A stretch of 64,000 nt of DNA from an uncultured Eubacteriales bacterium (lineage in GTDB: Bacteria; Bacillota; Clostridia; Oscillospirales; Acutalibacteraceae), in the NCBI GenBank assembly GCA_934464615.1, contig CAKSKA010000001.1:103159-167158 (forward strand). The letters run 5' to 3'. Each line of letters begins with the position of its first letter. The stretch's first letter is position 1. The notes below the pieces were generated by a model. That model had not been told where the DNA came from. It saw only the letters and a program-made list of their open reading frames with translations, and did not search any database. This document shows positions 2,375-19,832 of the stretch, piece by piece. The position numbers and the translations under genes are program-made.

Positions 2375-3856
2375 ATGCGGGCAAACGGTATTTTAATGCC
2401 GATATTTTCATTGTCATCGGATTATCCGATAGGCACTATGGGAAAACCGGCTTACGAATTTATTGATTTTTTGGAAAAAGCAAAACAAACTTACTGGCAA
2501 ATATTGCCCGTAGGCCATACGGGATTCGGCGATTCGCCGTATCAGACGTTTTCGTGCTATGCGGGAAATCCTTATTTTATTGACCTTGAACTGCTTTATG
2601 ATAAAGGGTTGCTGACAAAAAAGGATTTAGAGGAAGAAAAAAGGTATTCGGAAGCGGACGGCGAAAATATAAATTACGGAAGACTGTATAAAACACGGTA
2701 TAAAACGCTTAAAAAAGCCTTCCGACTGTTTGAGGCGGACGAAAATTATACCGCGTTTTGCAATGAAAATGCGTATTGGCTTGAGCCTTACAGTATGTTT
2801 ATGGCGATAAAAGAGATACACGGCTCAAAAGGTATTGAAGATTGGGATATTGAGTATAAATTACGCGATTCCGCAGCGGTTGCGGCTGTGTCAGTACAAA
2901 GTGCCGAAAGTATTGAATTTTATAAATTTTTGCAATACGAATTTTTTGTGCAATGGCAGGCTATGCACGCCTATGCGGCGGCAGCCGGAATAAAAATAAT
3001 AGGCGATATGCCGATTTATGCCGCAGCCGACAGTGCGGATGTATGGAATGAGCCGGAGGTTTTTGCGGTTGATTCCCATATGACTCCCGTTTCGGTTGCG
3101 GGATGTCCGCCGGATGAATTTTCAAAAGACGGGCAACTGTGGGGAAATCCGCTTTACAATTGGGATAAAATGGCGCAAAATAATTTTGAATGGTGGAAGA
3201 GACGTTTAAGTCATAATTTTTCATTGTTTGATATTGTAAGAATAGACCATTTCAGAGGATTCGAATCTTACTACAGCATACCTTACGGTCTTACCGCGCG
3301 CAAAGGCAAGTGGGAAAAAGGTCCGTCCACGACGTTTTTTAACGAGATGAAACGGTGCTTCGGCAATGATATGCCTATAATAGCGGAAGATTTGGGATTT
3401 TTGACAGATGATGTAAGAAATCTGCTGAAAGAAACCGGATTTGCGGGTATGAAGGTGTTGCAGTTCGGCTTCGGCACAGGGCAGGACAGCGAATATCTGC
3501 CCCATAATTATACACGACACTGTGTTGTATATTTGGGTACCCACGATAACGACACCACCGCCGGATGGTTTAAGAATTTGAACGAGAGCGAAAAGGAAAA
3601 ACTGTTTTTGTACGCCGGCATTAAAAACGGTGACGATGTTGTGGAACGTATGATAGATCTTGCGATGGAAAGCGTTGCGGATATATGTATTTTAAGTATG
3701 CAGGATGTGCTGGGACTCGGCAGTCAGGCGCGCATTAATACGCCGTCTACGCTCGGGAATAACTGGCAATTTCGTATGAAAAAGCAAAATACGGACAGTA
3801 TAGCCGAAAGACTTGCCAAAAAAACGGAAGTATACGGCAGGGGCAAAATCGAATAG
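2375..3856 (+). CDS. malQ: 4-alpha-glucanotransferase (amylomaltase, GH77)
   Basis: GH77 motifs seen: GDMPIY, RIDHFRGF, IAEDLGF, GTHDNDT. Length 493 aa is typical for the family. Confidence 0.9.
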   Translation: MRANGILMPIFSLSSDYPIGTMGKPAYEFIDFLEKAKQTYWQILPVGHTGFGDSPYQTFSCYAGNPYFIDLELLYDKGLLTKKDLEEEKRYSEADGENINYGRLYKTRYKTLKKAFRLFEADENYTAFCNENAYWLEPYSMFMAIKEIHGSKGIEDWDIEYKLRDSAAVAAVSVQSAESIEFYKFLQYEFFVQWQAMHAYAAAAGIKIIGDMPIYAAADSADVWNEPEVFAVDSHMTPVSVAGCPPDEFSKDGQLWGNPLYNWDKMAQNNFEWWKRRLSHNFSLFDIVRIDHFRGFESYYSIPYGLTARKGKWEKGPSTTFFNEMKRCFGNDMPIIAEDLGFLTDDVRNLLKETGFAGMKVLQFGFGTGQDSEYLPHNYTRHCVVYLGTHDNDTTAGWFKNLNESEKEKLFLYAGIKNGDDVVERMIDLAMESVADICILSMQDVLGLGSQARINTPSTLGNNWQFRMKKQNTDSIAERLAKKTEVYGRGKIE

Positions 3857-3866
3857 GGGTGTGGTT

Positions 3867-4337
3867 ATGAAAATAAAAAAGGGTGCACTTATATTAAGTA
3901 TTCTTATTCCGCTTGCGGTGGGCGGACTGTCCGCGCTTATATCGGGTTCGGCGATGAAGGCGTTTGAAACGGTAAATAAACCGCCGCTGTCGCCGCCTAT
4001 GGTTGTTTTTCCTATTGCGTGGACCGTACTTTACATCCTTATGGGTATAGCGTCGTATCTTGTTTACAATTCAAACGCGTCGGATAATCGTTCCGTATCC
4101 GCATTGTTTTTTTATGCGGCGCAGTTGGCAGTCAACTTTTTCTGGTCAATTATATTCTTTAATTTAAAAATGTATTTGTTTGCATTTATTTGGCTGTTGC
4201 TGCTTATAGTATTGACGGTTATAACAACGGTAAAGTTTTCTAAAATCAGCACTGCGGCAGGCTGGCTTATGGTGCCGTATTTGGCATGGCTTTTGTTTGC
4301 GGCTTATTTAAACCTCGGCATAGTAATTTTAAACTGA
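3867..4337 (+). CDS. tspO: TspO/MBR family tryptophan-rich sensory protein
   Basis: Five TM segments and a Trp-rich sequence (FPIAWTVLY, NFFWSIIFF, PYLAWLLFAAYLN). Start moved to ATG 3867 because the longer ORF overlaps the malQ 3' end. Confidence 0.8.
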   Translation: MKIKKGALILSILIPLAVGGLSALISGSAMKAFETVNKPPLSPPMVVFPIAWTVLYILMGIASYLVYNSNASDNRSVSALFFYAAQLAVNFFWSIIFFNLKMYLFAFIWLLLLIVLTVITTVKFSKISTAAGWLMVPYLAWLLFAAYLNLGIVILN

Positions 4338-16245: not shown

Positions 16246-16286
16246 AAATACGCCCCAAAAGTATAACACTTTTGGGGCGTATTTTT
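16246..16286. repeat. 41-bp direct repeat copy 1 = bidirectional terminator hairpin after gpmI
   Basis: AAATACGCCCCAAAAGTATAACACTTTTGGGGCGTATTTTT: a 14-bp stem with A/T-run flanks. Identical to 18112-18152. Confidence 0.9.
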
Positions 16287-16316: not shown

Positions 16317-16973
16317 TTATTTTTCAACAACATCTTTAACGATTTTGTCAAAATATTTGGATACTATGTGCAGACAAAATTCTTTCATCAAGGTCTCGTT
16401 TTCCTGCTTACTGCCATATATTTTGCCTGTTATCGGTGATTCCAATTCAACCATAAAATTCTGTAATATTGCCATAAAATCTTTTCCTGCAATAATATCC
16501 TTATATCGTTTAATGTACTGCACCAGTATGCCAAAGCGCTCGTGCGACAGTAAAGAATTTACTATTTCCAAAGTTTCTTTTGCATTGTTCATATTATATG
16601 GCAAAACATCTTTTTCAAAATCAAGCCCAAGTTTTTCACAATCATCTCTCATAAAGTTGCCTTTGCCTTGTGCTAATAATTGTAACCCCAGAAAATACTT
16701 TGTTGTGTTGTCGCTAAGTCCTAATTGATTTGCCGTCTTTTCGGCAATTTTGTCCTCGCGAATATCACTGTTCCCAATTAAGTAATCACAAGAAACTCCA
16801 AGATACTTTGCCATTTTCCCGGCAAGAATAATATCCGGATTGCGTTTTCCCAATACATAGAAGTTGATACTCTGCCGTGAACATTCAACAGCATCGGCAA
16901 ACGCACCTTGCGATATGCCTTTTTCAATTAGTAATTGTTCTAATCTTTTTCCGAAAATTTGTTGCGTCGGCAT
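16317..16973 (-). CDS. XRE-family transcriptional regulator (HTH_3 N-terminus, uncharacterised C-terminal domain)
   Basis: HTH region FGKRLEQLLIEKGISQGAFADAVECSRQSINFYVLGKRNPD. ATG 16973 is preferred because AAAGGGA lies 8 nt upstream. Confidence 0.8.
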   Translation of the reverse strand: MPTQQIFGKRLEQLLIEKGISQGAFADAVECSRQSINFYVLGKRNPDIILAGKMAKYLGVSCDYLIGNSDIREDKIAEKTANQLGLSDNTTKYFLGLQLLAQGKGNFMRDDCEKLGLDFEKDVLPYNMNNAKETLEIVNSLLSHERFGILVQYIKRYKDIIAGKDFMAILQNFMVELESPITGKIYGSKQENETLMKEFCLHIVSKYFDKIVKDVVEK

Positions 16974-16997: not shown

Positions 16998-17028
16998 TTT
17001 GTAGCGTAACAATATTTTTTGCTACAAA
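16998..17028. promoter_or_regulatory. Inverted repeat, candidate operator for the XRE regulator
   Basis: TTTGTAGC-N15-GCTACAAA. It abuts the -35 of the + strand promoter and lies in the 5' UTR of the regulator gene. Confidence 0.4.
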
Positions 17029-17031
17029 CAG

Positions 17032-17060
17032 TTGACAAATAAATATCTGTAGCATATAAT
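17032..17060 (+). promoter_or_regulatory. Perfect consensus sigma-70 type promoter facing the toxin-immunity genes
   Basis: TTGACA (17032-17037), 17-nt spacer, TATAAT (17055-17060). Confidence 0.7.
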
Positions 17061-17062
17061 AT

Positions 17063-17091
17063 ATTATAGCAACAACAGTTGTCTGTGTCAA
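17063..17091 (-). promoter_or_regulatory. Perfect consensus sigma-70 type promoter facing the XRE regulator gene
   Basis: Minus strand: TTGACA (17091-17086), 17-nt spacer, TATAAT (17068-17063). Confidence 0.7.
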
Positions 17092-17155: not shown

Positions 17156-17722
17156 TTGAGTTTAGAAACGGCCGTATTAGTTGCGGCGATAAACGGTGAC
17201 AAGTTAGCACCGAAACTATCAGAAAGTATTAATTATAAACATTGGCTTTCTATTGAGGATATGAGACGATGTTTGCCGTGTGCCGAAAATCATGGAAAAA
17301 TTTATCTAATGGAAGAAATAGCAGAACCTCGTACGCCTTTGCATCGTAACTGCCGTCGCTACCTTGAAAAAATGATAACGATAGACGCCGGAACAGCTAC
17401 GGTAAATGGCACCGAAGGGGCGGATTGGACATTAAAATATGACGGTAAATTGCCAAATTACTATGTTACAAAAAAATATGCAAACGAAAAAGGGTGGAAA
17501 GCAGGAAAATGGTTGTCCGATTTTGTACCCACCGTGATGATGACCGGTGGAATTTATAGGAATGACGATAAACACTTACCGCAAAAAAATGGTAGGATTT
17601 GGTATGAGGCAGACATTAACTATAAATCAGGAAAGCGAAACAAACAGCGTGTAGTATGGTCTAATGATGGCTTAATATTTGTCACATATGACCACTACAA
17701 AACATTTTATGAAATTGTATAA
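17156..17722 (+). CDS. Barnase-family ribonuclease toxin with an N-terminal phage MuF C-terminal-motif remnant
   Basis: The C-terminal ~95 aa align with barnase (KLPNYYVTKK...GRIWYEADINYKSGKRNKQRVVWSNDGLIFVTYDHYKTFYEI). Equivalents of K27, E73, R83, R87 and H102 are retained. The N-terminal WLSIEDMRRCLPCAENHGKIY...PLHRNCR resembles the end of the Phage_Mu_F domain. TTG start behind GAAGAGG. Confidence 0.85.
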   Translation: MSLETAVLVAAINGDKLAPKLSESINYKHWLSIEDMRRCLPCAENHGKIYLMEEIAEPRTPLHRNCRRYLEKMITIDAGTATVNGTEGADWTLKYDGKLPNYYVTKKYANEKGWKAGKWLSDFVPTVMMTGGIYRNDDKHLPQKNGRIWYEADINYKSGKRNKQRVVWSNDGLIFVTYDHYKTFYEIV

Positions 17723-17733
17723 AGGTGAAAAAT

Positions 17734-18018
17734 ATGAAAATCATTGAGTTGGATTTAACCGGATGCAGCTGCTTGTACGACATACATGAAAGAATTAAAA
17801 ATGCATTTGATTTCGACAATGAATATGGTCATAATTGGAGTGCTTTTTGGGATATGCTATGGAGCGAGTGCGACGCTGACAAAATAATAATCAAGGGTGA
17901 GAACACTTTACCAAGCGAACTCGATGAAACAATCGCAAAGCTTCATGAAATATTGGAAAGAAACAAAATTGAGCGAGCGACGTTTGATTGGCCGTTTGAT
18001 TATGAAATAATTTGTTAG
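17734..18018 (+). CDS. Barstar-family ribonuclease inhibitor (immunity protein)
   Basis: LYDIHERIKNAFDFDNEYGHNWSAFWDMLWS aligns with barstar [31 protein letters not shown]; W38 and D39 equivalents are kept. Starts 12 nt after the toxin stop. ATG 17734 lies behind AAAGGTG. Confidence 0.8.
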   Translation: MKIIELDLTGCSCLYDIHERIKNAFDFDNEYGHNWSAFWDMLWSECDADKIIIKGENTLPSELDETIAKLHEILERNKIERATFDWPFDYEIIC

Positions 18019-18111: not shown

Positions 18112-18152
18112 AAATACGCCCCAAAAGTATAACACTTTTGGGGCGTATTTTT
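18112..18152. repeat. 41-bp direct repeat copy 2 = bidirectional terminator hairpin after kdgK
   Basis: Identical to 16246-16286. Lies 18 nt beyond the kdgK stop. Confidence 0.9.
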
Positions 18153-18169: not shown

Positions 18170-19192
18170 TCAGCGTTGCACTCTGCCGGAGCCGTCGCCC
18201 TTTGCAAGTTTTTCAACTTCGCTTACGGTTACACGGTTAAAGTCACCCTCTACCGAATGTTTAAGGGCAGATGCCGCAACCGCAAATTCAATGGCATCGG
18301 CAGTGTTTTTACCGGAAAGCAGAGCATAAATAAGTCCGCCGCCGAAACTGTCGCCGCCGCCTACACGGTCGACAATATGCAGGTGATATTCTTTTGAGAA
18401 GCAGTAATCTTTGCCGTCGTAAAGCATACCGGCCCAATTATTGTCCGAAGCGGAAATAGACGTGCGCAATGTAATTGCAACCTTTTCAAAATTAAACTTT
18501 TCCGCCAACTGTTTGGCAACGGATTTATAACCTTCCTTATTTAATTTGCCGCCGTAAATATCTGTGTTTTCCGCCTCAATACCAAATACGTCTTTGGCGT
18601 CCTCTTCGTTGGAAATACAAACATCAACATATTTGCAAAGTTCGCTCATAGCGGCATTTGCTTCCTGTCTTGTCCACAATTTACCGCGGTAGTTTAAATC
18701 ACAGGAAATTTTAACACCGTGGTTTTTAGCGGCAATGCACGCCTGTTTGCATATTTCCACCATATTACCGCCGAGCGCGGGGGTTATTCCTGTAAAGTGG
18801 AACCAATCGGCACCGTCAAATATTTCATCCCAATTAAAATCTTCCGGAACGGCCTTTTGTATTGCTGAGCCTGCGCGGTCATAAATACATACGCTTCCGC
18901 GCTGAGAGGCGCCCTTTTCAAGGTAATATATACCAACCCTGTCGCCGCCGCGCGTAATGTGCGATGTATCTACACCGAAATACCTTAACGAATTTACAGC
19001 CGCCTGACCTATTGCGTGTTCCGGCAACTTTGTTACAAAGGAAGCGTCCATGCCGAAATTCGCAAGGGAAACCGCAACATTTGCTTCACCGCCGCCGAAT
19101 GTGGCTTGCAGTTGATCGTTTTGGAAAAACCTGTAGTATCCGTTTGGTGCCAAACGGAGCATTATTTCACCGAAAGTAACTATTTTAGCCAT
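18170..19192 (-). CDS. kdgK: 2-dehydro-3-deoxygluconokinase (PfkB family)
   Basis: PfkB signatures GGGEANVAVSL and DRVGGGDSFGGGLIYAL. ATG 19192 lies behind AAGGAG and overlaps the eda stop by 8 nt. Confidence 0.88.
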   Translation of the reverse strand: MAKIVTFGEIMLRLAPNGYYRFFQNDQLQATFGGGEANVAVSLANFGMDASFVTKLPEHAIGQAAVNSLRYFGVDTSHITRGGDRVGIYYLEKGASQRGSVCIYDRAGSAIQKAVPEDFNWDEIFDGADWFHFTGITPALGGNMVEICKQACIAAKNHGVKISCDLNYRGKLWTRQEANAAMSELCKYVDVCISNEEDAKDVFGIEAENTDIYGGKLNKEGYKSVAKQLAEKFNFEKVAITLRTSISASDNNWAGMLYDGKDYCFSKEYHLHIVDRVGGGDSFGGGLIYALLSGKNTADAIEFAVAASALKHSVEGDFNRVTVSEVEKLAKGDGSGRVQR

Positions 19193-19832
19193 TGTTTCTG
19201 CACTCCTTAACAATTTTTACCGATTTTTCGCACAAAGCGGTTATTTCATCAAATTTACCGTTATCAATTAAATCGGCTGTTACCATATAAGAGCCGCCGC
19301 AGGCACATATTACCGGACAGGATATATATTCCGCAAGATTTTTAAGCGAGATACCGCCTGTGGGCATTACTTTAAACATGGGGAACGGCGCACTCATGGC
19401 TTTGATCTTTGCAAGTCCGCCGGATTGTTCGGCAGGGAAGAACTTAAGCACCTTAAGTCCGAGTTTATATGCCGTGTGGTAATCCGTAGGAGTAGTGCAG
19501 CCGGGGAAAATATCAATATTCCTGCTTTGCGCGTACTTTACAAGTTCCGTATCAAGTCCCGGTGTTACAATAAATTTTGCACCGGCATTGATTGCTTGGT
19601 CAATCTGTTCTGTTGTAAGAACCGTTCCGGCACCTACAGCCATTTCGGGATGTGCCTTGCTCATAATTTCAATTGCTTTTGCCGCGCCTGCCGCACGGAA
19701 TGTAACTTCCGCCACGGGAACACCGCCTGCACACAACGCGTCTGCCAACGGCTTAGCGTCACGCTCGGGATTGTTCAGTTTAATTACCGGAACAACACCG
19801 ATTTCGGTTACTTTGTCTGCTATGTAACTCAT
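19185..19832 (-). CDS. eda: 2-dehydro-3-deoxyphosphogluconate (KDPG) aldolase
   Basis: KDPG/KHG aldolase family pattern (GVPVAEVTFR, GAGTVLT, LKFFPAEQSGG). Paired with kdgK. Confidence 0.88.
   Translation of the reverse strand: MSYIADKVTEIGVVPVIKLNNPERDAKPLADALCAGGVPVAEVTFRAAGAAKAIEIMSKAHPEMAVGAGTVLTTEQIDQAINAGAKFIVTPGLDTELVKYAQSRNIDIFPGCTTPTDYHTAYKLGLKVLKFFPAEQSGGLAKIKAMSAPFPMFKVMPTGGISLKNLAEYISCPVICACGGSYMVTADLIDNGKFDEITALCEKSVKIVKECRNNG

What the first reader, a model, noticed from the sequence alone, without database searches (positions are those of the whole stretch)
17156..18018. Barnase toxin carrying only the tail of a phage MuF domain and no export signal, with cognate barstar
Seen: residues ~95-188 align along their length with barnase, and the catalytic Lys, Glu, two Arg and His equivalents are kept (VTKK, WYEAD, KRNKQR, DHYKTF). 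Residues ~30-70 (WLSIEDMRRCLPCAENHGKIY...PLHRNCR) look like the conserved C-terminal motif of the Phage_Mu_F head-morphogenesis domain. Established knowledge: MuF-domain polymorphic toxins in temperate phages of Firmicutes have a full-length MuF N-terminus. Here about 80 percent of MuF is missing, and there is no signal peptide, LXG, WXG or Rhs delivery domain, yet the gene has its own RBS and a consensus promoter. The barstar homologue keeps the W38 and D39 equivalents but has Ser at the D35 position. Inference: either an orphaned toxin cassette or a domesticated intracellular toxin-antitoxin or abortive-infection module.
Basis: partly seen in the sequence, partly recalled or inferred. Interest (0 to 1): 0.6.

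Follow-up and report, generated by a model that had tools for sequence, protein, structure and literature searches.

The report
Phage-free mini-MuF barnase/barstar toxin cassette
This is an intact RNA-cutting toxin gene with its antidote gene and a repressor, one member of a very large family of tiny mobile cassettes in gut Clostridia; the scrap of phage head protein at the toxin's front end is a conserved, built-in part of the family, not the remains of a broken phage gene.

Summary
ORF 17156-17722 (188 aa, TTG start) has a complete barnase domain with all catalytic residues. The next ORF is a barstar. Residues 28-73 are the terminal Cys/His knuckle of a phage MuF1 domain.

The "truncated or orphaned MuF toxin" reading does not hold. 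More than 2,000 protein clusters share this ~188-aa architecture. The N-domain is conserved (56% mean pairwise identity; barnase 67%). It is modelled with barnase as one confident unit (pLDDT 93, pTM 0.88), and I found it with no other toxin domain. The family occurs in 371 loci of bacterial species genomes (record titles: Acutalibacteraceae, Oscillospiraceae, Ruminococcaceae MAGs). I found none in 50,697 phage genomes or 2.9 million viral contigs.

Here a 1.87-kb cassette (XRE repressor, toxin, barstar) lies between gpmI and kdgK. A perfect 41-nt duplication of a terminator hairpin flanks it. Twelve of 61 related cassettes have similar long flanking repeats, against 5 of 599 controls.

Relatives carry 2-4 barstar genes, tandem modules, or decayed toxins with intact barstars. 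That pattern fits strain-against-strain conflict better than a classical toxin-antitoxin pair. The delivery route is unknown.

This copy has Arg at a Cys that is invariant in 117 of 117 homologues.

Verdict: a new variant of a known kind, of moderate interest.

The parts
16246..16286 (.). Left copy of a perfect 41-nt direct repeat. It is a bidirectional terminator hairpin that ends gpmI (+) and the XRE gene (-).
   Evidence: the repeat finder D1/I3; terminator scan; these are the only two copies in the genome.
16317..16973 (-). XRE-family HTH regulator. It is 218 aa from the ATG at 16973; the longest ORF runs to a TTG at 17012. The C-terminal ~140 aa match no known family.
   Evidence: HTH_3 E 1e-11. 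Gene callers give 218 aa in the sister strain and in relatives. It is 69-70% identical in cassettes of other species.
17027..17091 (.). Control region with two overlapping, back-to-back 12/12 consensus promoters: + strand 17032-17060 towards the toxin, - strand 17091-17063 towards XRE. Repeated GCTAC/GCAAC-AAAAG elements are likely operators.
   Evidence: Promoter scan. The region is conserved across cassettes of different species. A 47-nt core is deleted in the sister strain.
17156..17389 (+). Toxin N-domain (residues 1-78), here called mini-MuF: a Cys/His knuckle with C39, C42, H63 and C66. Residue 68 (codon CGC, 17357-17359) is Arg where the family has an invariant Cys.
17390..17722 (+). 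Barnase-type RNase domain (residues 79-188, plus the stop codon) with the equivalents of K27, E73, R83, R87 and H102.
17734..18018 (+). Barstar immunity gene (94 aa, ATG start, 11 nt after the toxin stop codon, RBS AAAGGTGA).
   Evidence: PF01337 E 1e-12; register to PDB barstar; it is the only barstar in the genome.
18112..18152 (.). Right copy of the 41-nt direct repeat, a terminator hairpin that ends barstar (+) and kdgK (-).
   Evidence: In the sister strain this copy carries compensatory stem changes.

Best explanation
The locus is an intact, self-contained toxin-immunity cassette of a large family that is independent of phages.

Shown: the toxin is a two-domain protein. One domain is a barnase-type guanyl RNase with a complete active site. 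The other is a ~78-aa N-domain whose residues 28-73 are homologous to the terminal CxxC...HxxCxC knuckle of phage MuF1 proteins. This architecture is the conserved state of the family, not a truncation. A cognate barstar follows 11 nt downstream. A divergent XRE repressor shares a conserved control region with two overlapping consensus promoters. The 1.87-kb unit is an insertion between gpmI and kdgK, flanked by a 41-nt duplication of the target terminator. The family is patchy, multi-copy and fast-diverging among congeners.

Inferred: XRE keeps the strong toxin promoter shut. When the promoter opens, the toxin (throttled by its TTG start) and barstar are made together, and barstar blocks the RNase in the producer. 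The cassette serves conflict between strains: non-kin cells that lack the matching barstar are the targets, and extra barstar genes are collected as protection.

Not known: how the toxin leaves the producer and enters a target cell, and what the mini-MuF knuckle does. My leading guesses are a nucleic-acid or portal-binding tag inherited from MuF.

This particular copy may be weakened, because Arg replaces the family-invariant Cys68.
For: Domain identities.

Conserved architecture: 2,081 clusters, nearly all 185-194 aa, with PF00545 plus PF04233. The N-domain has 56% mean pairwise identity against 67% for barnase. One confident model, pLDDT 93 and pTM 0.88.

The N-domain was found only with barnase: in a search of 1.84 billion representatives, the hits of 95 aa or more that I read show the N-domain followed by AGTAT..GADW and barnase, or frameshifted pieces of it; shorter hits were not inspected.

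Not on phages: no hit in INPHARED or IMG/VR, against 371 loci in bacterial genomes. Neighbours are housekeeping genes here and in relatives.

Insertion: the 41-nt repeat. Congeners have gpmI directly next to eda, and one of them carries its cassette elsewhere. Perfect flanking repeats of 25 nt or more occur in 12 of 61 cassettes against 5 of 599 shifted controls.

Signs of conflict: 2-4 barstar genes in about 13 of 79 loci, tandem toxin-barstar modules in 5, three barstars in G006, and a decayed toxin with intact barstar in G010. The toxin is present in 8 of 18 other congeners, at 49-63% identity where full-length.

Regulation: consensus promoters, a control region conserved across species, and a TTG start in 32 of 55.

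Contrast: a genome of the same family has a classical barnase with a lipoprotein signal plus barstar. These bacteria do use a signal peptide when barnase goes out by the Sec route.
Against: No export, lysis or delivery function is encoded in or next to the cassette, and free barnase is not known to cross bacterial envelopes. An intercellular role is therefore inference from genome patterns only.

The N-domain is not combined with other toxin domains, unlike the trafficking domains of true polymorphic toxins.

This genome has one toxin and one barstar, with no extra immunity genes.

Most toxin-bearing congeners show no SPP1-type portal and no full MuF gene, so delivery by a resident prophage has no support.

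RNase activity, zinc binding and neutralisation by barstar are untested.
Confidence: 0.6

Rival explanations
1. Intracellular toxin-antitoxin, addiction or abortive-infection module. The RNase acts in the producer itself. The mini-MuF knuckle acts as a decoy or sensor that binds a phage head component such as the portal, or phage DNA. That binding frees or activates the RNase during infection, or loss of the cassette kills the cell.
For: There is no signal peptide or delivery domain. The operon is tight and has its own XRE switch. The cassette is small, mobile and patchily distributed like TA modules. The N-domain derives from a protein family that, according to a paper's summary, binds the portal and DNA in SPP1 (PMC10083569). 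The MuF domain lowered toxicity of another MuF toxin in E. coli (same paper).
Against: Arrays of 2-4 diverged barstars, tandem modules and orphan barstars beside decayed toxins are typical of exchanged toxins, not of TA or Abi systems. Barstar has no DNA-binding or labile part, and barnase-barstar binding is classically extremely tight (established knowledge). The gene order is toxin first. No PADLOC model matches the toxin or barstar. The cassettes sit among housekeeping genes, not in defence islands.
Confidence: 0.28
2. Orphaned or decaying remnant of a prophage MuF-barnase polymorphic toxin that lost about 200 N-terminal residues and its phage.
For: The N-domain is homologous only to the tail of MuF1. 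Phage MuF toxins with other C-terminal toxin domains are well known (PMC5576092), and Tox-Barnase is listed with MuF trafficking in PMC3482391. This copy carries R68 at an invariant Cys, and the sister strain has lost the promoter core.
Against: The same length and start are conserved in more than 2,000 clusters, with a conserved N-terminus MSLE.... The XRE gene and control region upstream are conserved. No MuF remnant lies upstream in any frame; the intergenic space is 182 nt. No full-length MuF-barnase was found in phage collections or in the relatives examined.
Confidence: 0.04
3. Housekeeping or scavenging RNase with its inhibitor, as barnase is often viewed in Bacillus. It would be released by lysis to digest environmental RNA, with no role in conflict.
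For: Homology to barnase and binase. Classical secreted barnase-barstar pairs exist in the same bacterial family.
Against: There is no secretion signal. The cassettes show patchy presence, fast divergence, multiple copies, extra barstars and insertion with target duplications. Such features are not expected of a nutritional enzyme.
Confidence: 0.05

Closest known systems
Barnase-barstar of Bacillus amyloliquefaciens (and binase)
   Same: Same RNase fold and catalytic residues: about 45% identity over 100-108 aligned residues, TM 0.86. A barstar-family inhibitor keeps the W38 and D39 equivalents.
   Different: The ~78-aa mini-MuF domain stands in place of the signal peptide and propeptide. The genes are fused into one operon within a mobile cassette that has an XRE switch. 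The barstar interface is altered (D35 to S, Y29 to E), and the toxin has Asp at the barnase R59 position (read from the alignments).
MuF polymorphic toxins of temperate phages (Jamet et al. 2017, PMC5576092; the MuF trafficking class of Zhang et al. 2012, PMC3482391, which lists Tox-Barnase/Imm-Barstar)
   Same: A MuF-derived sequence lies N-terminal to a toxin domain, with a small immunity gene just downstream. The hosts are Firmicutes.
   Different: Only the last ~45 residues of the MuF1 domain are present. The gene is not behind a portal gene and not in a prophage, and the family is absent from phage collections. The N-domain is not shared with other toxin domains.
Type II toxin-antitoxin modules with BECR-fold RNases (RelE/ParE-like)
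   Same: A small bicistronic RNase/inhibitor pair, chromosomal, mobile and patchy, under the control of an HTH regulator.
   Different: The toxin gene comes first. The inhibitor has no DNA-binding domain, and the regulator is a separate, divergently transcribed gene. Immunity-gene arrays occur in relatives.
Colicin-type nuclease/immunity pairs (E3, E9 with Im proteins)
   Same: A cytoplasmic nuclease is made together with a tightly binding immunity protein under a repressed strong promoter. Immunity specificity diversifies.
   Different: There is no receptor-binding or translocation domain and no lysis gene. The hosts are Gram-positive, and the cassettes are chromosomal.

Membership tests
Barnase / microbial guanyl-specific RNase (PF00545) | Profile match above the curated cut-off | tested here: met
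   39.7 bits against a cut-off of 24, E 7e-10; E 2.5e-23 to PDB barnase.
Barnase / microbial guanyl-specific RNase (PF00545) | Catalytic Glu73 and His102, with Lys27, Arg83 and Arg87 | tested here: met
   The alignment shows VTKK, WYEADINY, GKRNKQR and DHYKTF. These motifs are kept in 116-119 of 120 homologues.
Barnase / microbial guanyl-specific RNase (PF00545) | Barnase fold | tested here: met
   AF2 model with pLDDT 93; Foldseek to 1bgs/1bse gives TM 0.86-0.87 and rmsd 1.8 A. This is a prediction, not an experiment.
Barnase / microbial guanyl-specific RNase (PF00545) | RNase activity | not testable with these tools
   Needs an enzyme assay.
Barstar (PF01337) | Profile match above the cut-off, and position immediately after the RNase gene | tested here: met
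   48.1 bits against a cut-off of 23.4; the gene starts 11 nt after the toxin stop codon.
Barstar (PF01337) | Interface residues Y29, D35, W38, D39 | tested here: inconclusive
   W38 and D39 are kept, D35 is Ser and Y29 is Glu (register). The toxin has Asp at the position of barnase R59, which may be a compensating change. Binding is untested.
MuF polymorphic toxins (Jamet 2017) | A complete MuF domain (MuF1-4) at the N-terminus | tested here: not met
   Only profile positions 64-108 of 112 match, at 16.9 bits, below the 29.6 cut-off. Relatives cover positions 61-111 only. hhalign matches only the last 43 residues of a canonical MuF.
MuF polymorphic toxins (Jamet 2017) | Gene immediately downstream of a portal gene in a (pro)phage | tested here: not met
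   The neighbours are tpiA and gpmI on one side and kdgK and eda on the other. Relatives also sit among housekeeping genes. No hits in phage collections.
MuF polymorphic toxins (Jamet 2017) | C-terminal toxin domain of at least 100 aa, followed by a small immunity ORF | tested here: met
   Barnase is 110 aa and barstar 94 aa.
Polymorphic toxin systems in general (Zhang 2012) | An N-terminal trafficking domain shared among many different C-terminal toxin domains | tested here: not met
   A search with the N-domain alone found it only with barnase, or with broken barnase, among the hits read.
Polymorphic toxin systems in general (Zhang 2012) | Arrays of extra immunity genes or toxin modules | tested here: inconclusive
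   Present in relatives. Absent in this genome, which has one toxin and one barstar.
Type II toxin-antitoxin | A labile antitoxin that also represses the operon through its own DNA-binding domain | tested here: not met
   Barstar matches only PF01337 and has no HTH, RHH or AbrB domain. The regulator is a separate XRE gene. Lability cannot be tested here.

The most novel reading that the evidence does not exclude
The ~45-residue MuF knuckle is a minimal capsid-interaction tag that binds the portal or DNA. Either it lets a chromosomal, phage-less toxin ride in the heads of whatever siphophage replicates in the cell, so that the toxin is injected into non-kin cells. Or it works the other way round, as a decoy that senses an incoming phage's head-assembly proteins and fires the RNase. 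Either way the family would show what the most conserved part of MuF does. The cassettes would also move by a mechanism, still undescribed, that duplicates 26-102 nt of the target, often whole terminator hairpins or tRNA 3' ends, without any recombinase of their own.
Probability: 0.15. Interest if true: 0.85.

Novelty: new variant of a known kind. Interest (0 to 1): 0.5.

Why it matters
Barnase-barstar is a textbook protein pair, and MuF toxins are a recognised but functionally unexplained class. This family joins them in a minimal form free of phages, and it is very common in gut Oscillospirales. At least one NCBI record of the family is named "phage head morphogenesis protein", which could make phage-prediction tools see phage genes where none exist.

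The family isolates the most conserved ~45 residues of MuF next to an enzyme that is easy to assay. That gives a simple experimental handle on what the MuF knuckle does: packaging, nucleic-acid binding or autoinhibition.

The long, variable target duplications around cassettes that carry no recombinase point to an insertion mechanism that no known mobile-element class explains well.

Tried and rejected
1. Recent truncation or gene decay. Rejected: length, start and upstream XRE are conserved in thousands of homologues and in the sister strain.

2. A full MuF1 gene elsewhere in the genome as a recombination partner. None was found. The prophage on contig C14 has a MuF2-type (PF06152) protein that is not detectably similar.

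3. Dependence on a resident MuF or SPP1-portal prophage. Among 41 relatives, full MuF1 occurs only in two genomes without the toxin. Most toxin-bearing congeners have no SPP1-type portal hit. Not supported, though other portal families were not surveyed.

4. The N-domain as a shared trafficking domain with other toxin heads. Not seen.

5. Phage or plasmid carriage. No phage hits. Plasmid hits cover the barnase domain only.

6. Known defence system. No PADLOC match for the toxin or barstar.

7. The 41-nt repeat as a dispersed repeat family. Rejected: only these two copies exist in the genome.

8. Conserved cassette ends or terminal inverted repeats next to the flanking repeats. None was evident on inspection.

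9. An empty site in other species. The terminator sequence is not conserved there. I could show only that gpmI abuts eda without a cassette.

10. Expression evidence from public runs.

11. Literature. I found no paper that describes this short family. Only the MuF/Tox-Barnase table entry in PMC3482391 touches it.

Full report
**What is there**

The interval holds two co-directional ORFs. The first is 17156-17722 (188 aa, TTG start). The second is 17734-18018 (94 aa from its ATG, 11 nt after the toxin stop codon). Upstream, on the other strand, lies an XRE-type HTH gene at 16317-16973 (218 aa from the ATG used by gene callers in relatives). The surroundings are housekeeping genes: tpiA and gpmI to the left, kdgK and eda to the right.

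**Checking the observation**

The C-terminal 110 residues are a barnase. Pfam Ribonuclease scores 39.7 bits (cut-off 24). phmmer against PDB barnase gives E 2.5e-23 over residues 84-187, and the alignment keeps the K27, E73, R83, R87 and H102 equivalents. An AlphaFold2 model built on 53 homologues is confident throughout (pLDDT 93, pTM 0.88). Its C-terminal half superposes on barnase structures at TM 0.86.

The second ORF is a barstar (PF01337, 48 bits). It also has Glu at Y29. The toxin has Asp where barnase has R59, the partner of D35 (alignment). That looks like a re-paired interface, but this is inference.

The MuF tail is weak in this protein alone: PF04233 E 0.011, below the cut-off, and TIGR01641 3e-4. 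Three further results show it is real:
- Congeneric homologues pass the Pfam cut-off with the same partial coverage, profile positions 61-111.
- The family profile aligns to the last 43 residues of a canonical 198-aa MuF that sits directly behind a portal gene in a prophage of a related genome (hhalign probability 96%, E 2e-9).
- The best viral fold matches are MuF minor capsid proteins over 48-55 columns at 1.5-2 A.

The consensus promoter (12/12) and an RBS are present.

**Not a truncation**

A search of 5.8 billion proteins found 2,081 clusters. Almost all of the 120 best are 185-194 aa, cover the query from residue 1, and carry both Pfam hits.

In an alignment of 53 of them the N-terminus (MSLE.A....AINGD.LSP...S.NYKHW) and the motif C39-x2-C42...H63-x2-C66-R-C68 are as well kept as the RNase. 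Mean pairwise identity is 56% for residues 1-78 and 67% for barnase.

I also searched 1.84 billion representatives with the N-domain alone. This gave only 120 hits. Those of 95 aa or more that I read continue into AGTAT..GADW and barnase, or into frameshifted pieces of it; one is a canonical short MuF. I saw no other toxin head.

So this is a fixed two-domain protein, not a recent loss and not a shuffled polymorphic toxin. The sister strain (98% identical toxin, same locus) and cassettes in other species have the XRE gene there.

**Not phage-borne**

tblastn found nothing in 50,697 phage genomes. The scan of 2.9 million viral contigs found no relative. Plasmid hits cover only the barnase domain.

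The scan of one genome per prokaryotic species found 371 loci. Their record titles name Acutalibacteraceae, Oscillospiraceae, Ruminococcaceae and other Clostridia MAGs; those that name a host name sheep, goat, deer or Hadza people. The contexts I inspected are chromosomal housekeeping genes.

The window's own genome (1.65 Mb) has no full MuF1 gene. It does hold a prophage on contig C14. That prophage has an SPP1-type portal followed by a 494-aa PF06152 (MuF2) protein with a ~125-aa C-terminal extension and a small downstream ORF. This may be a genuine phage MuF toxin, but it is unrelated in sequence to the mini-MuF.

Among 41 relatives, full MuF1 genes occur only in two genomes without the toxin. 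Most toxin-bearing congeners show no SPP1-type portal. The cassette therefore does not depend on a resident MuF prophage.

**A mobile cassette**

A perfect 41-nt direct repeat brackets the unit (16246-16286 and 18112-18152). Each copy is a bidirectional terminator hairpin, and these are the only two copies in the genome.

Congeners have gpmI directly followed by eda. One of them (G009) keeps that site empty and carries its cassette on another contig.

Other cassettes show the same kind of flank: perfect repeats of 26 to 102 nt made of terminator hairpins, tRNA 3' ends or gene 3' ends. Repeats of 25 nt or more flank 12 of 61 cassettes, against 5 of 599 equally sized segments placed elsewhere in the same loci. 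Eleven of 55 cassettes lie within 600 nt of a tRNA gene.

The cassettes encode no recombinase, and I saw no conserved ends. The insertion mechanism is unexplained.

**Anatomy across the family**

The core is toxin plus barstar. About 17 of 79 loci add the divergent XRE gene, as here. About 13 have two to four barstar genes. Five have tandem toxin-barstar modules. One congener has XRE, toxin and three barstars. Another has a broken toxin next to an intact barstar.

Within the genus the toxin is present in 8 of 18 other genomes, in one to three copies, at 49-63% identity to this one where full-length.

The XRE-toxin control region is conserved across species, including both overlapping consensus promoters and repeated GCTAC/GCAAC-AAAAG elements. 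The toxin start codon is TTG in 32 of 55 loci, which fits translational throttling of the toxin relative to barstar.

A genome of the same bacterial family has a classical barnase with a lipoprotein signal peptide plus barstar. The mini-MuF domain therefore stands where a secretion signal would be.

**How it most likely works**

Shown: an active-site-complete RNase fused to a conserved Cys/His knuckle, a cognate inhibitor, a repressor-controlled strong promoter, and a horizontally mobile, fast-diverging, sometimes multi-copy cassette.

Inferred: XRE holds the promoters shut. On an unknown signal, toxin and barstar are co-produced and form a complex. The biological use is conflict between strains, because collections of extra barstars and retained barstars beside dead toxins are what exchanged toxins leave behind.

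Unknown: exit from the producer and entry into a target. Nothing in or near the cassette encodes export or lysis, and free barnase does not cross envelopes. This is the weak point of the model. It keeps the intracellular TA/Abi reading alive at roughly 0.3.

The knuckle could be a nucleic-acid or portal-binding tag inherited from MuF. SPP1 gp7 binds the portal and DNA, as summarised in PMC10083569. It could also be an autoinhibitory or sensing part. None of this is tested.

**Peculiarities of this copy**

Residue 68 is Arg (CGC, 17357-17359). All 117 homologues with a recognisable motif, and the sister strain (TGC), have Cys there. The first Cys of CRC is the more tolerant one (Gly or Asp in 6 of 117). 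The knuckle of this copy may therefore be impaired.

The sister strain keeps Cys68 but has a 47-nt deletion that removes the core of both consensus promoters.

**Comparison and novelty**

By sequence and fold the locus is a barnase-barstar pair. By ancestry of its N-domain it is related to MuF toxins, and PMC3482391 already lists Tox-Barnase with MuF trafficking and Imm-Barstar. It fails the defining features of MuF polymorphic toxins: no full MuF domain, no portal neighbour, no phage. It also fails those of classical type II TA modules.

I found no paper describing the short phage-free family. One NCBI record of the family is named "phage head morphogenesis protein".

Earlier notes of this scan on other genomes reached the same family-level reading. 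I re-derived that reading here rather than relying on them.

I rate this a new variant of a known kind, of moderate interest.

**Limits**

The repeat survey used perfect matches only and 79 of the 371 loci.

Noticed in passing
window 16246-16286 and 18112-18152; also L036, L037, L055, L058, L063, L066, L077, L086, L093, L099: Cassettes that carry no recombinase are flanked by long perfect direct repeats (26-102 nt) of target sequence, mostly whole terminator hairpins, tRNA 3' ends or gene 3' ends. This holds for 12 of 61 cassettes against 5 of 599 controls. No known transposition or integration mechanism fits well.
   Followed up: partly
window 17027-17073 versus L029 (sister strain, Logan SRR29834417): The sister strain has a 47-nt deletion between short repeats (ACAAACAGTTG / ACAACAGTTG). 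It removes the core of both consensus promoters of the XRE/toxin switch. L053 has a similar 29-nt gap.
   Followed up: partly
window 17357-17359: The codon is CGC (Arg68) where the sister strain has TGC and 117 of 117 homologues have Cys. This is a private change in the presumed zinc knuckle.
   Followed up: yes
own genome, contig C14 about 2.6-33 kb (outside the window): A prophage with terS, terL, an SPP1-type portal, and then a 494-aa Phage_min_cap2 (MuF2) protein. That protein has a ~125-aa C-terminal extension of unknown family, followed by a small ORF before the scaffold gene. It is a candidate genuine phage MuF toxin/immunity pair.
   Followed up: partly
L029 right-hand repeat copy: The right copy of the terminator repeat differs from the left by a compensatory stem pair (C/G to T/A) and a nearly inverted loop (ATAAC to GTTAC). 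In the window's strain the two copies are identical, which suggests gene conversion or hairpin flipping.
   Followed up: no
L021 (G019:C2) 2903-3892: A classical barnase with a lipoprotein-type signal peptide and a low-complexity linker, followed by a barstar that keeps D35, in a genome of the same bacterial family. It is a useful contrast to the signal-less mini-MuF form.
   Followed up: partly
L109 (G025:C74) 119-1731: A 342-aa protein with an unrelated N-terminal region and a barnase/RNase-Sa-like C-terminus, followed by a 190-aa ORF that may be an immunity gene. This is a different toxin architecture built on the same RNase.
   Followed up: no
window 18170-19213: kdgK lies between the cassette and eda here. 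It was not found in the ~6-kb stretch fetched around gpmI in five congeners, three of which have gpmI directly next to eda. The gpmI-eda interval seems to be a variable spot.
   Followed up: no
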